This document shows positions 40,226-52,431 of a stretch of DNA of 64,000 nucleotides, piece after piece (position 1 is the stretch's first letter; each line of letters starts with the position of its first letter). The notes under the pieces were generated by a model. That model was not told where the DNA came from and ran no database searches. It worked only from the letters and a program-made list of their open reading frames with translations. The stretch comes from Verrucomicrobiota bacterium (GTDB taxonomy: Bacteria; Verrucomicrobiota; Verrucomicrobiia; Verrucomicrobiales; DEV007), in assembly GCA_003402735.1 (NCBI GenBank), contig QQNE01000008.1, positions 6,859-70,858 on the forward strand, given 5' to 3'. Position numbers and translations under genes: made by a program.

Positions 40226-40576
40226 TCAGTTCCCATTCCCATTCCCATTCCCATTCCCATTCCCATTCCCATTCCCATCGTCATCGTCATCGTCATCGTC
40301 ATCGTCTTCGCCCTCGTCTTCGCTGTTGTCACCCGGCAGCGGCTTGCCTTTCATGATCTTCCTCTGCTTGTCCTCGGGGAACTTGCTCAGCGTTCGGGCC
40401 AGCTTTCTTGCGTAGCTCATGTATTGCTCGGCGCTTCCACCGGAATTTTCCGCGATCTTCTGGGCCAGAAATTGAGCGGAGGACTGATTGTTCCGAACTC
40501 GGGCTTCCAAGCTTGCCCCCAGGCCCCACCACAGCAGCGCGATGGACAGAATGCATTTCCAAAGGTTCGTTTTCAT
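40226..40576 (-). CDS. Small secreted acidic protein ending in (Asp)10-(Gly-Asn)8
   Basis: Track ORF 40226..40666 trimmed to the ATG giving MKTNLWKCILSIALLWWGLGASLEA (signal peptide). The C-terminus is ..GDNSEDEGE-DDDDDDDDDD-GNGNGNGNGNGNGNGN*. It lies 13 nt downstream of the pseudopilin-like gene. Confidence 0.6.
   Translation of the reverse strand: MKTNLWKCILSIALLWWGLGASLEARVRNNQSSAQFLAQKIAENSGGSAEQYMSYARKLARTLSKFPEDKQRKIMKGKPLPGDNSEDEGEDDDDDDDDDDGNGNGNGNGNGNGNGN
40229..40306. repeat. In-frame coding hexanucleotide microsatellites: (ATTCCC)x8, first unit GTTCCC, then (ATCGTC)x5
   Basis: Read directly. 40229..40276 encodes (GN)8 on the minus strand and 40277..40306 encodes D10. Confidence 0.95.
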
Positions 40577-40589
40577 AGAGAAATTCATG

Positions 40590-51700: not shown

Positions 51701-52431
51701 TCCGCCGCAGTTCACCCAACTTCGTGCCGAACCAGGTGGATGCCATCACCGTGACGCTCATCAATCCGAACAGCACCCTCACCTCCGCGCTGGATTACCG
51801 CATCAACGACGGGACGTGGGTTCCCTACACGGCCCCCTTCTCCCTGACCCGCGCCGTTTACCCCAACGGGTGCTCGGTCCAGGCCAGAGCGCGCGCCATC
51901 GTGGCGGGTTACGACAACAGCCCCAACAGCTCCGCCACGATCAGCCTGAAACTCAACGCCACCAAGACCACGGTGACCTTCACTTCCATGGCCTCGACCG
52001 CCGGGTATCTCAATGAGGCCTACATCTACATCGATGGAGACGCCTACTATCTCGGCAATAGCGACATGGGAGCGGGCTTCGCCGTCAACGTCGATGTCTA
52101 TCTGGAAACGGGCGTCACCAACGTCTTTGATCTCAGCATCGACACCTACATGCGCAGCGGTGGACGATTCATCTCCGGTGCGCTGCGGGGGCTCGACACC
52201 CGCACCGGATCGCTCTTCAGTCGGATCGACAGCAACGCCTCGTTCCGGGGACAATCGACGAACTCGGCCAAGATCAAGGACCTCAGCTTCCAGAGCAACC
52301 TGAACATGATCGTCGGCTACGAGGACCTGATCATCGCCAAGCAGAATCCGGACTGGGACTACGATGACTTCATGTTCCGGCTCACCTCGAGCCAGGCCTT
52401 CAACTTCACGTTCGGCGGTTACGCCCGCTGA
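45763..52431 (+). CDS. Giant (2222 aa) prepilin-type N-terminal domain protein with ~20 tandem ~92-aa Ig-like repeats and a distinct C-terminal domain
   Basis: GTG start. The N-terminus is MTVRSRHSA|FSLLEILLAVAIIGTLAAVAV, with Phe+1, Glu+5 and a hydrophobic helix. A ~200-aa unique region follows. Then come 19 clear repeats carrying the (L/M)x(Y)(R/K)(L/I)NGGxWxxY..PF.V.R..YP.G..(V/I)EARARA signature, plus one degenerate copy. The final 158-aa non-repeat domain ends ..GYEDLIIAKQNPDWDYDDFMFRL... Confidence 0.85.
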   Translation: MTVRSRHSAFSLLEILLAVAIIGTLAAVAVVRHHNSIENVRVAKLESDIATINSAIKTYAANGGSLAGIVTPQAVLDKMKTSLSTEEDARFVGIGGSMIDARLTAVSSDDLPDGKPRAIWNSVASRFDLATNGSGIAQFVLDATAGRAEYGTESREDGVTFSYNTSNGWVWNYNDAAPLPRPTPSLVSVSGLPSGTSNTVDPTPWSDPLLSNLLPPTFSLDGGSYRPSRFPLEVQLINPNPAASSTILVSVGGSNFVPYTAPLKLVADTTVTAFATGDPSLWFPSSTVGETYLVSPPEQLATPVISPSSPQFQWDTAETISVSISNPNSSDDSALDYKIDDGSWSRYSGSFSLEFSANEDGAVISARVIPLGPDYTESQVATVSIAPAPPQQNLVAPVITTSQPKFIQGSVETITVTLADQNAAGSALEYRLQGGNWLTYASSFNVTRAAYPQGVKIEARSRAISRAYINSTTSSFTVELSTVELRPPNIIPTAANFIVGAVETVNVTITNPNPTSAASLLDYKINNGAWLPYTTALSFTRANYSSGFTIAARARSTSAGYTNSVDSSVQIGVTGIPLLPPSITPSAPNFVAGNVETVTVTLTNLNSVASSVSYRLNGGTWLNYSGVFSVTRSTYPSGVLVEARVAGTTTASATSAINSVSIGLATLQLRPPSLVPSAANFIAGVTDSISVSIVDPNTVASAAEYRIDNGAWQAYQGPFTVTLAGFPSGLMIEARARATAPTHVDSDLDTAIIGLTLAQLRRPLISTSAASLMAGAAESVSVSISNPNAVGLGEVEYRLDGGAWQTYAAPFTVSRAAYPSGATIESRVRALSLALLDSDVSTSIISLIPWRLRSPTVSSDVAGFVAGFVESATITVTATDAASEGLEYRLNGQSWQAYTAPFAVTRTNYPTGVTVEARSISSSPALDPSEIASLTIGLSPVQLQSPIIMRSATVFSTSTNTVTVSLVNPNLSGALMDYRLNNGAWQTYTVPFTLAWTNFSAGVTIDARARSISAAFLTSGIASALVGTSASELQSPVITPTAPNFIQGFQEWIAIGLSNPNPVGSSALDYRINGGEWLAYTTTITATRTAYPSGLTIEARARALSSTFTTSPNAILAIGLTSVLLRSPMIATTAPRFIAENTETVTVTLTNPNATGSVIDYRLNGGSWLTYTSSFTGTLAANPNGLTIEARCRATDSALATSTIASAFVGVAPVRLQTPLISPSASNFLAGSAESVTVTLTTPNTTGFVLEYRLANGVWVTYSTPFVVTQQSYQAGVVVEARARALTAAYVDSNIALAAIGRTPVLLRRPSIIPSANSFLPGSIESVSVTLTNPNPVGAVLEYRVNNGAWLVYSAPFTVTRTSFPNGVPIEARARALSSAYITSESSTFTVKLTPVQLIEPSIRSSASDFIPGSVETLTVTLVNPNPIGSVMDYRINGGGWTTYSTALSLRRTSYPTGVSLEARARATQSAYATSNTSTANFGVALVQLLTPTISSSDPAFVAGTTETITVSISDPNATTTTTTTNAAPMAASPLEASVNGNRSMLQYRLNGRAWVNYSAPFTVTRTLYPTGVTVEARALATTPAYLTSNNALRGIGLTTLTLQTPTLASNVRNFRIGSADFATVTVTNPNPSGISALQYRINSGGWLAYTGPVTFARTAYPSGLTVGARAVAAAISGYGTSRIGTTTIGLTQVQLLPPSITRTLPNFVAGSGETITITLSNRNPSGSALQYRLAGGGWTTYTTPFTVTRSRFPKGVIVEAQARATISAYLASTIASTNIGIGTVQLQIPVITPSAQNFMAGSTESITVTVSNPNPSGSSILQYRINGTAWRNYTGAFAVNRTSYPTGLNIEAQALTASTVYVTSAAASATIGLTPARLNQATIRRSPVNVNFMAGSVETMTISLAWRTPNPSGVSVNEYRLNGGSWLTYTSAFNVTRSAFPQGVTIDARSRSTSVAYIDSTTSTMTIGVTLVPLQTPMIRRSSPNFVPNQVDAITVTLINPNSTLTSALDYRINDGTWVPYTAPFSLTRAVYPNGCSVQARARAIVAGYDNSPNSSATISLKLNATKTTVTFTSMASTAGYLNEAYIYIDGDAYYLGNSDMGAGFAVNVDVYLETGVTNVFDLSIDTYMRSGGRFISGALRGLDTRTGSLFSRIDSNASFRGQSTNSAKIKDLSFQSNLNMIVGYEDLIIAKQNPDWDYDDFMFRLTSSQAFNFTFGGYAR
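46657..51960 (+). repeat. Tandem coding repeat array, 19 units of 270-288 nt (one of 342 nt), diverged at DNA level
   Basis: Anchor Tyr codons of the YR(L/I)NGG motif are at 46771, 47050, 47329, 47602, 47875, 48151, 48424, 48694, 48970, 49243, 49516, 49789, 50062, 50404, 50680, 50956, 51232, 51520 and 51796. The array boundaries are approximate. Confidence 0.9.

What the first reader, a model, noticed from the sequence alone, without database searches (positions are those of the whole stretch)
40226..52431. Candidate unit: pseudopilin-like gene plus acidic repeat protein, divergent from a hybrid sensor kinase plus the giant pilin-like gene
Four genes sit between the housekeeping argG and a SNF2 helicase.
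- On the minus strand, a pseudopilin-like gene (41117-40590) is followed 13 nt later by a secreted protein with a D10-(GN)8 tail.
- Across a 226-nt intergenic region with a 26% G+C core lies a 1440-aa hybrid histidine kinase. Its periplasmic sensor is of the double-propeller/Y_Y_Y type used elsewhere for glycan sensing.
- 96 nt further on is the 2222-aa pilin-like repeat protein, behind its own AT-rich (24% G+C) leader.

The two pilin-like N-termini share an unusual variant: FSL-x-EIL-x-x-VAI-x-G, preceded by A/S rather than G. The common PVC form is GFTLIELLVVIAIIG. This suggests the two belong together.

The kinase has a receiver but no DNA-binding output in the window. No pilus or T2SS assembly genes are nearby either. 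Any cognate regulator and assembly machinery must therefore be encoded elsewhere.

The combination suggests a signal-controlled surface fibre or adhesin module that I cannot map to a described system.
Basis: inference. Interest (0 to 1): 0.7.

Follow-up and report, generated by a model that had tools for sequence, protein, structure and literature searches.

The report
Giant modular pilin beside sensor-kinase trio
The region holds a 2,222-residue pilin-like fibre protein (pilin head, about 20 Ig-like domains, lectin-like tip) next to a separately conserved trio of sensor kinase, short pilin and small acidic secreted protein; the two are neighbours in only some related bacteria, so a single four-gene unit is plausible but not shown.

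Summary
All four genes exist as described. One correction: the short pilin most likely starts at GTG 41063 (157 aa), not at 41117.

Comparative data split the region into two modules.

**(A) The giant gene.**
- It is an extreme modular type IV pilin: a class III signal peptide (Ala at -1, Phe +1, Glu +5), a ~190-aa pilin module, 19 diverged 91-aa Ig-like repeats plus one degenerate repeat, and a DUF4114-like C-terminal domain.
- Its orthologues (71-44% identity) keep their own AT-rich promoter-like leader.
- In three of five lineages they sit without any kinase, short pilin or acidic gene nearby.

**(B) The trio.**
- The propeller/Y_Y_Y hybrid kinase is divergently paired with the short-pilin and acidic-protein operon in three lineages (70% and 56% relatives).
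- More distant kinase orthologues lack the pair.

**Linkage of A and B.**
- The trio abuts an intact giant gene in two lineages and a giant-family relic in the third.
- The linkage is therefore recurrent but dispensable.
- The shared A/S-FSL-x-E N-terminus is a clade-wide form of the signal peptide, not a specific link between the two genes.
- The window holds no assembly machinery, response regulator or Hpt gene.

Verdict: a new variant of a known kind (modular pilins); the unit hypothesis is partly supported.

The parts
40226..40576 (-). Small exported acidic protein, 116 aa from MKTNLW (an alternative ATG lies at 40588). It has a signal peptide, a conserved ~50-aa helical core (SAQFLAQKI...YARKLARTL), and a low-complexity D10-(GN)8 tail.
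   Evidence: Translation. Hexamer repeats. The core is conserved in four sequences from three lineages. Tail length varies between strains that have an identical pilin gene, from D2(GN)10 to (GN)16. No Pfam or NCBIfam hit.
40590..41063 (-). Short type IV pilin-like protein. The precursor is 157 aa with a 32-aa basic leader. The predicted cleavage site is Ser32|Phe33, with Glu at +5. The mature protein is about 125 aa.
   Evidence: Start set by alignment with three orthologues. The profile matches solved pilins with F33 as mature residue 1 (Geopilin, E 4e-6). The L023 orthologue passes the Pfam N_methyl cutoff (22.5 vs 21.2 bits), whereas the window copy does not. Distant family members have canonical G|F(T/S)L, and one heads a four-pilin operon with a T2SSE ATPase.
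41064..41343 (.). Divergent intergenic region. The AT-rich core at 41178-41330 is a presumed bidirectional promoter and regulatory region.
   Evidence: It is the only stretch of the window with 30% G+C or less over 80 nt. An AT-rich block with shared motifs is found in L013/L009 and, more weakly, in L023. The consensus promoter scan found weak matches at 41229-41256 (+) and 41264-41236 (-), not above chance.
41344..45666 (+). Hybrid sensor histidine kinase, 1440 aa. From N to C: N-terminal signal/anchor, periplasmic Reg_prop beta-propellers plus Y_Y_Y, a TM helix (~res 811-833), GAF, HisKA, HATPase_c, receiver. It has no Hpt and no DNA-binding domain.
   Evidence: Pfam. NCBIfam gives only sub-threshold hybrid-kinase hits. 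Orthologues with the same architecture at 99, 70, 56, 52, 43... % identity.
45667..45762 (+). Leader of the giant gene, holding a promoter-like element: TTGACG at 45703-45708, TATAAT at 45724-45729, 15-nt spacer.
   Evidence: Sequence. 24% G+C minimum. A TTGAC...TATAAT/CATAATTACCGTA-like block is conserved upstream of giant orthologues with and without the trio. Not reported by the consensus scan (spacer outside 16-18), and no terminator lies between the kinase and the giant gene.
45763..46347 (+). Giant protein, N-terminal part. It comprises a 9-aa leader (cleavage Ala9|Phe10, Glu +5), a hydrophobic alpha-1 helix and a ~190-aa pilin module.
   Evidence: TIGR02532 scores 17.8 bits (cutoff 16.3); PF07963 scores 18.8 (below 21.2). 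The profile matches solved pilins with F10 as mature residue 1. The module defines a large family, always N-terminal, with 211 clusters at E<=1e-30 and protein lengths of 163-2196 aa. Passenger domains in that family are diverse.
46402..51951 (+). Stalk of the giant protein: one degenerate repeat plus 19 canonical ~91-aa Ig-like repeats (OmpL47-type / chitobiase C-terminal-like). A 27-residue Thr-rich insertion lies at 50314-50394.
   Evidence: NF047446, E 1e-55. Repeat period and count. Repeats are 41% identical on average. Nineteen repeats are present in four lineages, with positional orthology of 19/19 to P0004. There is no DNA-level tandem repeat.
51952..52428 (+). C-terminal ~159-aa beta-rich domain of the giant protein. 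It is DUF4114-like and carries the conserved acidic motif GYEDxI...PDxDYDD.
   Evidence: DUF4114 is the only Pfam hit in 6 of 6 orthologues, but always below the cutoff (22.6 vs 27 bits). This is the most conserved part of the protein (93% to P0004). No PDB relative by sequence. The AF2 model is too poor to use (pLDDT 47).

Best explanation
The region holds two modules that are neighbours in this lineage. It is not one obligatory four-gene unit.

**Module A, the giant gene: a stand-alone modular type IV pilin**
- Shown: it has a class III signal peptide, a pilin module, a stalk of 19 canonical repeats plus one degenerate repeat, and a DUF4114-like end domain. It has its own conserved promoter-like leader. 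Its orthologues occur without the trio.
- Inferred mechanism, step 1: the precursor inserts into the inner membrane through its N-terminal helix.
- Step 2: a prepilin peptidase encoded elsewhere removes the 9-residue leader after Ala9.
- Step 3: the pilin module docks into a type IV filament (a T2SS-like pseudopilus or a pilus) built by machinery encoded elsewhere. It most likely sits at the tip, because a 230-kDa passenger cannot pack into the filament body.
- Step 4: the chain of about 20 Ig-like domains, very roughly 70-80 nm long, holds the C-terminal calcium/sugar-binding-type module away from the cell so that it can bind a polysaccharide or a particle surface.

**Module B, the trio**
- Shown: the kinase is conserved in divergent arrangement with the short-pilin/acidic-protein operon, across the most AT-rich stretch of the window.
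- Inferred mechanism: the periplasmic double-propeller/Y_Y_Y domain binds a periplasmic ligand, which by analogy is an oligosaccharide. The phosphoryl group then passes from HisKA to the kinase's own receiver, and on to an unidentified Hpt and response regulator. That regulator acts on the divergent promoter region.
- Inferred products: a short filament-type pilin, and an exported helical 9-10 kDa protein with a slippage-prone acidic/GN tail. The role of the latter is unknown; it could be an accessory to the kinase or to the filament.

**Link between the modules**
The likeliest link is loose. Both pilins depend on the same distant filament machinery, and the trio has repeatedly ended up beside giant-family genes.
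For: **Giant gene**
- Pilin identity.
- Family-wide modular design, with VWA, cadherin/Big_9, beta-propeller and DUF4114 passengers on the same N-terminal module.
- This matches the published concept of modular pilins (PMC8179133).
- DUF4114 is the proposed calcium-dependent exopolysaccharide-binding module of the Myxococcus pilus-tip adhesin PilY1.1 (PMC9109919).
- Repeat number (19) and repeat order are conserved across 52-71% identity.

**Independence of the giant gene**
- Orthologues in L014, L015/16 and L025 lack the trio.
- The leader is conserved regardless of whether the trio is present.
- The downstream synteny SNF2-ParA-amylase-Dak-aldolase is shared by the window, L014 and L015.
- L013 has a 940-bp spacer with palindromic elements between the kinase and the giant gene.

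**Trio conservation**
- L009/L010/L013 (kinase 70-71%, pilin 70%, acidic 72%) and L023 (56%, 53-57%, 45%).
- The AT-rich core is unique in the window.

**Short pilin as a filament subunit**
- Family members sit at the head of a four-pilin/T2SSE-ATPase cluster (L029), and occur as three paralogues downstream of a HisKA_3 kinase/LuxR-type regulator pair (L030).
- So a two-component sensor lies beside this pilin family in three different arrangements.
Against: - No expression, processing or localisation data exist. Every mechanistic step is inference.
- The -1 residue is Ala (giant) or Ser (short pilin), not the near-invariant Gly, so cleavage is unproven.
- The window copy of the short pilin fails Pfam N_methyl.
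- The DUF4114 match is below the curated cutoff in all six orthologues.
- Both AlphaFold models were unusable (pLDDT 47 and 43.5).
- The trio abuts a giant-family gene or relic in all three trio-bearing lineages. That could mean a tighter functional link than I assume.
- Only 64 kb of the genome is available, so I could not show that filament machinery, an Hpt or a regulator exist at all.
- Sampling is thin: five or six lineages, all from metagenomes. The clade was absent from the reference-genome scan.
Confidence: 0.55

Rival explanations
1. One reading: all four genes are one signal-controlled fibre module. The kinase controls both the divergent short-pilin/acidic operon and the giant gene. 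The short pilin forms a filament, or primes one, that carries the giant pilin.
For: - The trio lies immediately upstream of the giant gene in the window and in L013, although both outer flanks differ (argG vs OSBS/HisKA-like gene; SNF2 vs APP1).
- A relic of a giant-family N-terminal module lies beside the trio in L023.
- In the same population, near-identical DNA (339 bp, 99.7%) is preceded either by the trio's kinase (L023) or by a giant-family gene (L026).
- Both proteins are class III signal peptide proteins.
- The short-pilin family occupies the first position of a pilin operon elsewhere.
- A phosphorelay controlling a DUF4114 pilus-tip adhesin has a precedent in HsfBA-PilY1.1 (PMC9109919).
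Against: - Three of five giant-bearing lineages lack the trio at the locus.
- The giant leader is conserved irrespective of the trio.
- L013 has a 940-bp repeat-filled spacer between the kinase and the giant gene.
- In L023 the trio persists with only a dead fragment of a giant-family gene, so the trio does not need an adjacent giant.
- Kinase orthologues occur without pilins.
- The shared N-terminal motif is clade-wide.
Confidence: 0.2
2. The kinase has nothing to do with pilins. It is a glycan-type sensor serving carbohydrate metabolism, for example the sialidase-like and sulfatase genes of this genome. It merely shares an intergenic region with a small operon, and the adjacency to the giant gene is a rearrangement accident.
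For: - Reg_prop/Y_Y_Y sensors are best known from Bacteroides polysaccharide-utilisation regulators.
- Another example is the orphan kinase ReeS, which controls sialidase production in Clostridium perfringens (PMC3762733; title and abstract only).
- The window carries BNR sialidase-like genes, a GntR/Peripla_BP_3 regulator and a sulfatase.
- More distant kinase orthologues have unrelated neighbours.
Against: - The divergent kinase/short-pilin/acidic arrangement survives down to 56% kinase identity while everything around it changes.
- Two other, non-orthologous two-component sensors sit beside members of the same short-pilin family.
Confidence: 0.15
3. The pilin-like N-termini are not processed or polymerised. 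With Ala or Ser at -1 they act as uncleaved signal-anchors. The giant protein is then an inner-membrane-tethered, periplasm- or envelope-spanning fibre, and the short protein is a bitopic membrane protein that may modulate the kinase. No filament machinery is needed.
For: - Gly at -1 is the canonical requirement, from my own knowledge of PilD-type peptidases. Here -1 is Ala or Ser in all close orthologues.
- The short pilin has an atypically long 32-aa leader.
- No assembly genes occur in the window or in about 150 kb of related loci around giant or trio genes.
Against: - Phe +1, Glu +5 and the hydrophobic helix are strictly conserved and align in register with mature pilins.
- The leader sequences are variable except next to the cleavage site, as expected for a removed peptide.
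- Ala at -1 recurs in five other N_methyl-positive short pilins on L030 and L033.
- It alternates with Gly at -1 in homologues (P0008, L027, L029). This argues that the local peptidase accepts Ala.
Confidence: 0.2

Closest known systems
Modular type IV pilins (Streptococcus sanguinis PilB/PilC; survey in Raynaud et al. 2021, PMC8179133)
   Same: An N-terminal class III signal peptide and a small pilin module act as a carrier. A passenger module is grafted on at the C-terminus for ligand binding. Relatives carrying the same pilin module bear VWA, cadherin-like, propeller or DUF4114 passengers, which is the 'tinkering' pattern described there.
   Different: - Size and design: 2222 aa with about 20 Ig-like domains plus a tip domain. 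The most extreme case noted in that survey was 860 aa.
- Ala at -1 instead of Gly.
- No linked pilus genes.
- Incorporation into a filament is untested.
Myxococcus xanthus PilY1.1/PilY1.2, DUF4114-bearing pilus-tip adhesins controlled by the HsfBA phosphorelay (PMC9109919, PMC13190605)
   Same: A DUF4114-type module is presented at the distal end of a type IV filament component. It is proposed to bind polysaccharide in a calcium-dependent way. Expression is set by a hybrid-kinase phosphorelay.
   Different: - The carrier there is the PilY1 beta-propeller, which is not a pilin. Here it is a pilin module plus a long Ig stalk.
- The DUF4114 match here is sub-threshold.
- HsfB has a different architecture and is not adjacent to pilY1.
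Bacteroides hybrid two-component systems (HTCS, BT4663 type)
   Same: A periplasmic Reg_prop double propeller plus Y_Y_Y domain, followed by HisKA, HATPase_c and a receiver in one polypeptide.
   Different: - There is no C-terminal AraC-type DNA-binding domain, so it cannot act as a one-protein regulator.
- It has an extra cytoplasmic GAF domain.
- Its neighbours are pilin-like genes, not a polysaccharide-utilisation locus.
PilS-PilR control of the major pilin gene pilA (Pseudomonas, Myxococcus, Geobacter); comparison from my own knowledge
   Same: A sensor kinase is encoded next to a pilin gene. A plausible feedback exists between pilin supply and transcription.
   Different: PilS is a six-TM kinase without a large periplasmic domain, and it is paired with the adjacent NtrC-type PilR. 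Here the sensor is a large periplasmic propeller, the kinase is hybrid, and no regulator is adjacent.
Giant Ig-repeat adhesins secreted by type I systems (LapA, SiiE, MpIBP); comparison from my own knowledge
   Same: A long stalk of tandem Ig-like domains of conserved number acts as a spacer, with a ligand-binding region at the distal end.
   Different: Those proteins have a C-terminal RTX/T1SS signal and an N-terminal retention module. This one has an N-terminal class III signal peptide and pilin module, and no RTX repeats.

Membership tests
Type IV pilin / class III signal peptide protein (giant protein) | Short basic leader ending in Gly at -1 | tested here: not met
   The leader MTVRSRHSA is short and basic, but -1 is Ala. 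Ala is also at -1 in P0004, P0005, P0006 and P0007; Gly is at -1 only in P0008.
Type IV pilin / class III signal peptide protein (giant protein) | Phe at +1, Glu at +5, ~20 hydrophobic residues forming alpha-1N; match to the N-terminal methylation motif models | tested here: met
   The sequence is F10-S-L-L-E14 followed by ILLAVAIIGTLAAVAVV. TIGR02532 scores 17.8 bits against a cutoff of 16.3. PF07963 scores 18.8 against 21.2, just below. The profile aligns to solved pilins with F10 as mature residue 1.
Type IV pilin / class III signal peptide protein (short pilin 40590-41063) | Gly at -1; Phe +1; Glu +5; hydrophobic alpha-1N; N_methyl model | tested here: inconclusive
   - Ser is at -1 in all three lineages, while F33, E37 and the helix are present.
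- The profile matches solved pilins in register, E 4e-6.
- The window copy has no N_methyl hit, but the L023 orthologue passes (22.5 vs 21.2 bits).
- Distant homologues L027, L030 and L033 pass, and L027 and L029 have Gly at -1.
Type IV filament subunit (both proteins) | Processing by a prepilin peptidase and assembly by a GspE/PilB-type ATPase platform | not testable with these tools
   No such genes were found in the 64-kb window or in the flanks of related loci. The rest of the genome is not available.
Modular pilin (sensu PMC8179133) | N-terminal pilin motif plus at least one extra domain not specific to pilus biology | tested here: met
   TIGR02532 lies at residues 8-30. It is followed by repeated NF047446 (OmpL47-type) domains, E 1e-55, and a DUF4114-like end domain.
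T2SS major pseudopilin GspG | Match to TIGR01710 above its cutoff | tested here: not met
   The giant protein scores 22 bits against a cutoff of 88.85, and only over residues 9-62. The short pilin has no hit.
DUF4114 (PF13448) domain | Score at or above the Pfam gathering threshold (27 bits) | tested here: inconclusive
   It is the only family hit, and it hits 6 of 6 orthologues. The best score is 22.6 bits, E 1.5e-4. A shorter relative, P0129, reaches 24 bits.
Bacteroides-type hybrid two-component system (HTCS) | Periplasmic sensor + HisKA + HATPase + receiver + AraC-type HTH in one protein | tested here: not met
   All parts are present except the HTH. No DNA-binding family was found at E<=0.01.
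Hybrid sensor histidine kinase with Reg_prop/Y_Y_Y sensor | Reg_prop repeats, Y_Y_Y, HisKA, HATPase_c and Response_reg above cutoffs | tested here: met
   Scores were 139.2, 41.6, 64.4, 94.5 and 88.5 bits, all above the curated cutoffs.
PilS/PilR-PilA circuit | Multi-TM PilS-type kinase and an adjacent NtrC-type regulator next to the pilin gene | tested here: not met
   The kinase has a large periplasmic domain and a fused receiver. No regulator gene was found within 64 kb.

The most novel reading that the evidence does not exclude
The trio and the giant gene together form a portable 'accessory filament kit'. A glycan-type sensor switches on a dedicated short major-type pilin and an acidic partner protein. 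Using housekeeping type IV filament machinery, these build a filament whose only job is to display a ~230-kDa, ~75-nm modular pilin tipped with a lectin-like domain. The kit moves as a cassette and integrates beside, or replaces, giant-family genes. That would explain the relic in L023 and the alternative junctions in L023 and L026.
Probability: 0.12. Interest if true: 0.75.

Novelty: new variant of a known kind. Interest (0 to 1): 0.45.

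Why it matters
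**The giant protein**
- If it is really processed and displayed, it would stretch the modular-pilin concept from 'one extra domain on a pilin' to a fibre-length adhesin. It is more than 2.5 times the largest case noted in the 2021 survey.
- Its stalk length has been held at 19 repeats across deep divergence, which suggests a selected reach. Examples would be spanning a capsule or reaching particles.

**The wider family**
- The N-terminal module defines a family of hundreds of clusters, with VWA, cadherin-like, propeller and lectin-like passengers, and no studied member that I could find.
- This gives a handle on how poorly studied Verrucomicrobia-type bacteria attach to polysaccharide particles.

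**The trio**
- It offers a compact, testable case of a propeller-type sensor wired to pilin genes rather than to glycan-degradation genes.

Tried and rejected
- **Exact look-ups.** Look-ups of the kinase and of the giant protein found no record.
- **Reference-genome scan.** The scan with the kinase sensor domain returned only 23-27% identical Dyadobacter and Prolixibacteraceae paralogues. The clade is therefore not in that collection, and no whole-genome co-occurrence test was possible.
- **Structure prediction.** AlphaFold2 on the giant's C-terminal domain (pLDDT 47) and N-terminal module (pLDDT 43.5) used alignments only six sequences deep. Both models were too poor, so no fold searches were run. 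The N-terminal model's secondary structure (a long helix followed by strands) is compatible with a pilin but is not evidence.
- **Solved structures.** The PDB sequence search with the C-terminal domain gave nothing meaningful.
- **Promoter and terminator scans.** Counts were not above shuffled controls. They missed the giant-gene leader because its spacer is 15 nt.
- **Possible shared operator.** I looked for a shared operator between the two AT-rich regions, of the form CC(A/G)TA-N4-CC(A/G)TA. I dropped it as over-reading of short AT-rich motifs and never tested it statistically.
- **Non-coding RNA.** Rfam found no RNA family in the window.
- **L025 flanks.** I considered whether the flanking genes of L025 were the kinase or SNF2. 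They are not.
- **Shared pilin type.** I considered that the two pilin-like proteins might be the same pilin type. Profile-profile comparison shows similarity only over the 49-column N-terminal helix.

Full report
**1. What is in the sequence**

*Acidic protein*
- It lies at 40226-40576 on the minus strand. It has a signal peptide, a helical core and a D10-(GN)8 tail. The tail is encoded by two perfect or near-perfect hexanucleotide arrays.
- Its MKTNLW start lies 13 nt after the stop of the pilin-like ORF.

*Short pilin*
- The pilin-like ORF is open back to TTG 41117. Three orthologues begin with ATG at MNVPS, which aligns with GTG 41063.
- I therefore take 40590-41063: 157 aa with a 32-residue leader.

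*Kinase*
- The kinase (41344-45666) contains Reg_prop repeats, Y_Y_Y, a TM helix, GAF, HisKA, HATPase_c and a receiver. It has no DNA-binding or Hpt domain.

*Giant protein*
- The 2222-aa protein (45763-52431, 234 kDa) starts 96 nt after the kinase stop.

*Composition and surroundings*
- The AT-rich core at 41178-41330 is the only place in the 64-kb window (62% G+C) where an 80-nt window drops to 30% G+C or less. The giant's leader reaches 24% over 50 nt.
- Pfam scans of 30 further ORFs found no T2SS or pilus machinery, no response regulator and no Hpt.
- Rfam found nothing in the window.
- The source is a Verrucomicrobia metagenome-assembled genome (names attached to P0001 and P0003).

**2. 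The giant gene is a modular type IV pilin**

*N-terminus*
- It reads MTVRSRHSA|FSLLEILLAVAIIG.
- TIGR02532 passes its cutoff, and Pfam N_methyl falls just short.
- A profile of six orthologues matches solved type IV pilins and GspG strictly in register, with Phe10 as mature residue 1.

*Stalk*
- After the ~190-aa pilin module and a Pro-rich linker come one degenerate and 19 canonical ~91-aa repeats of the OmpL47/chitobiase-C-terminal type (NF047446, E 1e-55).
- The repeats are old. They are 41% identical on average, and there is no DNA-level tandem repeat.
- Their number is 19 in all four long orthologues, which are 52-71% identical. Positional orthology to P0004 is 19/19. More distant relatives have 11 repeats.

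*C-terminal domain*
- The last 159 residues are the most conserved part of the protein.
- They hit only DUF4114, in 6 of 6 orthologues, always below the cutoff.
- DUF4114 is the proposed calcium-dependent polysaccharide-binding module of the Myxococcus pilus-tip adhesin PilY1.1 (PMC9109919; PMC13190605).

*Family*
- A full HMMER search with the N-terminal module found 3718 proteins at E<=1e-3, of which 211 clusters were at E<=1e-30.
- In nearly all of the 150 listed hits the module lies at or within about 55 residues of the N-terminus. In three long proteins (P0142, P0151, P0165) the best-scoring stretch starts further in, at residue 105-115. Protein lengths run from 163 to 2196 aa.
- Sampled members carry VWA, Big_9/cadherin-like, DUF5122 propeller or DUF4114 passengers.
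- This is the 'carrier plus grafted effector' design described for modular pilins. The most extreme case noted in that survey was 860 aa (PMC8179133).

**3. Comparative neighbourhoods**

*Giant orthologues*

| Locus | Giant identity | Upstream | Downstream | Trio present |
|---|---|---|---|---|
| L013 | 71% | EboA, AMP-binding, OSBS, a small HisKA-like gene, then the trio, then a 940-bp spacer | APP1 | yes |
| L014 | 57% | EboA, AMP-binding, OSBS, glutaminase | SNF2, ParA, amylase, Dak, aldolase | no |
| L015/16 | 52% | glutaminase | SNF2, ParA... | no |
| L025 | 44%, 11 repeats | EF-G-like gene, TauE | permease-like gene | no |

- The window shares its downstream synteny with L014 and L015. 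L013 shares its upstream synteny with L014. The giant gene is therefore the ancestral resident of the locus, and the trio is the variable element.
- The giant's promoter-like leader (TTGAC... T(A/G)TA(A/T)T ... ATAATTA(C/T)CGTA) is recognisable in the window, L013, L014 and L015 alike.
- In L013 the kinase-giant spacer holds two copies of a 188-nt element with 42-nt inverted arms.

*Kinase orthologues with the same architecture*
- They occur at 99, 70, 56, 52, 43, 43, 41, 40... % identity.
- The 70% orthologue (L009/L013) and the 56% orthologue (L023) are divergently paired with a short pilin and an acidic protein.
- The 52% (L022) and 43% (L024) orthologues have unrelated neighbours.

*L023 and L026*
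- In L023 the gene after the kinase is not a giant gene. On the far side of the acidic gene lies an 80-codon fragment of a giant-family pilin module (residues ~107-185), 58% identical to P0007, with an upstream in-frame stop. It is a relic.
- The 339 bp that follow the kinase in L023 are 99.7% identical to the 339 bp that follow the intact P0007 giant-family gene in L026.
- So in one population the same downstream gene is preceded either by the trio or by a giant-family gene.

*Conclusion on linkage*
- The trio is a real conserved module. Its contact with giant-family genes recurs in three of three trio lineages.
- That contact is not needed by the giant gene (absent in three of five lineages) and is not needed intact by the trio (L023).

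**4. The N-terminal motif argument**
- Ala at -1 with FSL-x-E is present in all giant orthologues except P0008, which has Gly. This includes those without a trio.
- The short pilin belongs to a wider family (RNAQ(T/A)IA motif, ~115-aa mature) recovered from metagenomes:
  - L027 has a canonical G|FTLMELL N-terminus and is solitary.
  - L029 has G|FSLVEML and is the first of four pilin genes, followed by a T2SSE ATPase and a HAMP hybrid kinase.
  - L033 has two adjacent pilins, both with A|FSLIELL.
  - L030 has three paralogues, all A|FSL(V/L)ELL and all passing Pfam N_methyl, downstream of a HisKA_3 kinase and a LuxR-type regulator.
- Only Ser at -1 and the 32-aa leader are special to the trio's pilin.
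- Beyond the first helix the two window proteins are unrelated (hhalign aligns only 49 columns).
- A two-component sensor sits next to this short-pilin family in three non-orthologous arrangements. This is mild, circumstantial support for kinase-pilin coupling.

**5. The acidic protein**
- The signal peptide and the helical core are conserved in all three lineages.
- The tail is not conserved. Strains with a 100% identical pilin gene carry D10(GN)8, D2(GN)10 or EDEDD(GN)16. The L023 orthologue has no Asp run.
- The tail therefore behaves as a slippage-prone, always in-frame, low-complexity appendage.
- Its function is unknown. An accessory role at the kinase's periplasmic face, or at the filament, is speculation.

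**6. Mechanism and confidence**
- The best reading (0.55) is two modules with a loose link, as set out in the Best explanation section. All steps involving processing, assembly, display, ligand binding and phosphorelay are inferred.
- What is shown: domain content, the in-register pilin match, repeat conservation and the synteny pattern.

**7. Novelty and score**
- The parts are of known kinds: a modular pilin, a hybrid propeller kinase and a short pilin.
- What is unusual is the scale and fixed length of the modular pilin, the lectin-like tip on a pilin carrier, and a propeller-type kinase wired to pilin genes.
- I rate it a new variant of a known kind, interest 0.45.

Noticed in passing
window 40226-40330; L001, L003, L004, L005, L008: The acidic/GN tail of the small secreted protein is length-polymorphic between strains whose adjacent pilin gene is 100% identical. 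The variants are D10(GN)8, D2(GN)10 and EDEDD(GN)16. The coding repeats are 6-nt units, so slippage stays in frame.
   Followed up: partly
L013 9072-9756: The 940-bp spacer between the kinase and the giant gene in the 71% relative holds two copies (93% identical) of a 188-nt element. Each copy has 42-nt inverted arms, and the pair is bracketed by ~50-nt direct repeats. It looks like a small palindromic, MITE- or REP-like insertion.
   Followed up: partly
L023 6108-6446 and L026 4602-4940: A 339-bp stretch, covering the start of a secreted protein gene and its upstream region, is 99.7% identical in the two contigs. It is preceded by the trio's kinase in L023 and by an intact 1444-aa giant-family gene in L026. 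This is either strain-level structural variation at one locus or a duplicated junction.
   Followed up: partly
L023 ~229-483 (+): An ~80-codon relic of a giant-family pilin module (58% identical to P0007) with an in-frame stop upstream. It lies tail-to-tail with the acidic gene. L026 1-141 also carries a stray 46-codon pilin N-terminus fragment just upstream of the intact gene.
   Followed up: partly
L013 3251-3697 (+); L010 1121-1567 (-): A 134-148-aa protein with only a HisKA-like H-box (HDLRNHIGIIRGF; Pfam HisKA E 0.003) sits next to the acidic gene in the 70% relative. It has no counterpart in the window (tblastn). It could be a small phosphotransfer protein for the hybrid kinase.
   Followed up: partly
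window 50314-50394: A 27-residue insertion (ATTTTTTTNAAPMAASPLEASVNGNRS) with a Thr7 run lies in repeat 14 of the giant protein. It is absent from all orthologues.
   Followed up: no
L029 9960-10020: The first pilin gene of the four-pilin/ATPase cluster has no ATG, GTG or TTG between the upstream stop and the G|FSLVEML cleavage motif. Either an unusual start codon is used or the record contains an error.
   Followed up: no
window 14112-18743: A PSCyt1/PSCyt2/PSD1 protein (1054 aa) is followed by a DUF1501 protein (484 aa). This is the gene pair typical of Planctomycetes and Verrucomicrobia.
   Followed up: no
window 26068-29498 (-): An MbnP-like domain is fused to a di-haem cytochrome c peroxidase (CCP_MauG). 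It lies next to a YHYH-domain protein, which suggests a copper- or metal-related periplasmic pair.
   Followed up: no
window 30691-36975: Two BNR sialidase-like proteins, one with FG-GAP repeats (992 aa), flank a GntR/Peripla_BP_3 regulator. A sulfatase lies at 24303-25793. This carbohydrate-related context could be an alternative target of the kinase.
   Followed up: no
window 37079-38869 (-) and 38826-40175 (+): A 596-aa ORF with no Pfam hit overlaps the 5' end of argG by 44 nt, head-to-head. One of the two starts is probably over-extended; one metagenome call gives argG as 429 aa.
   Followed up: no
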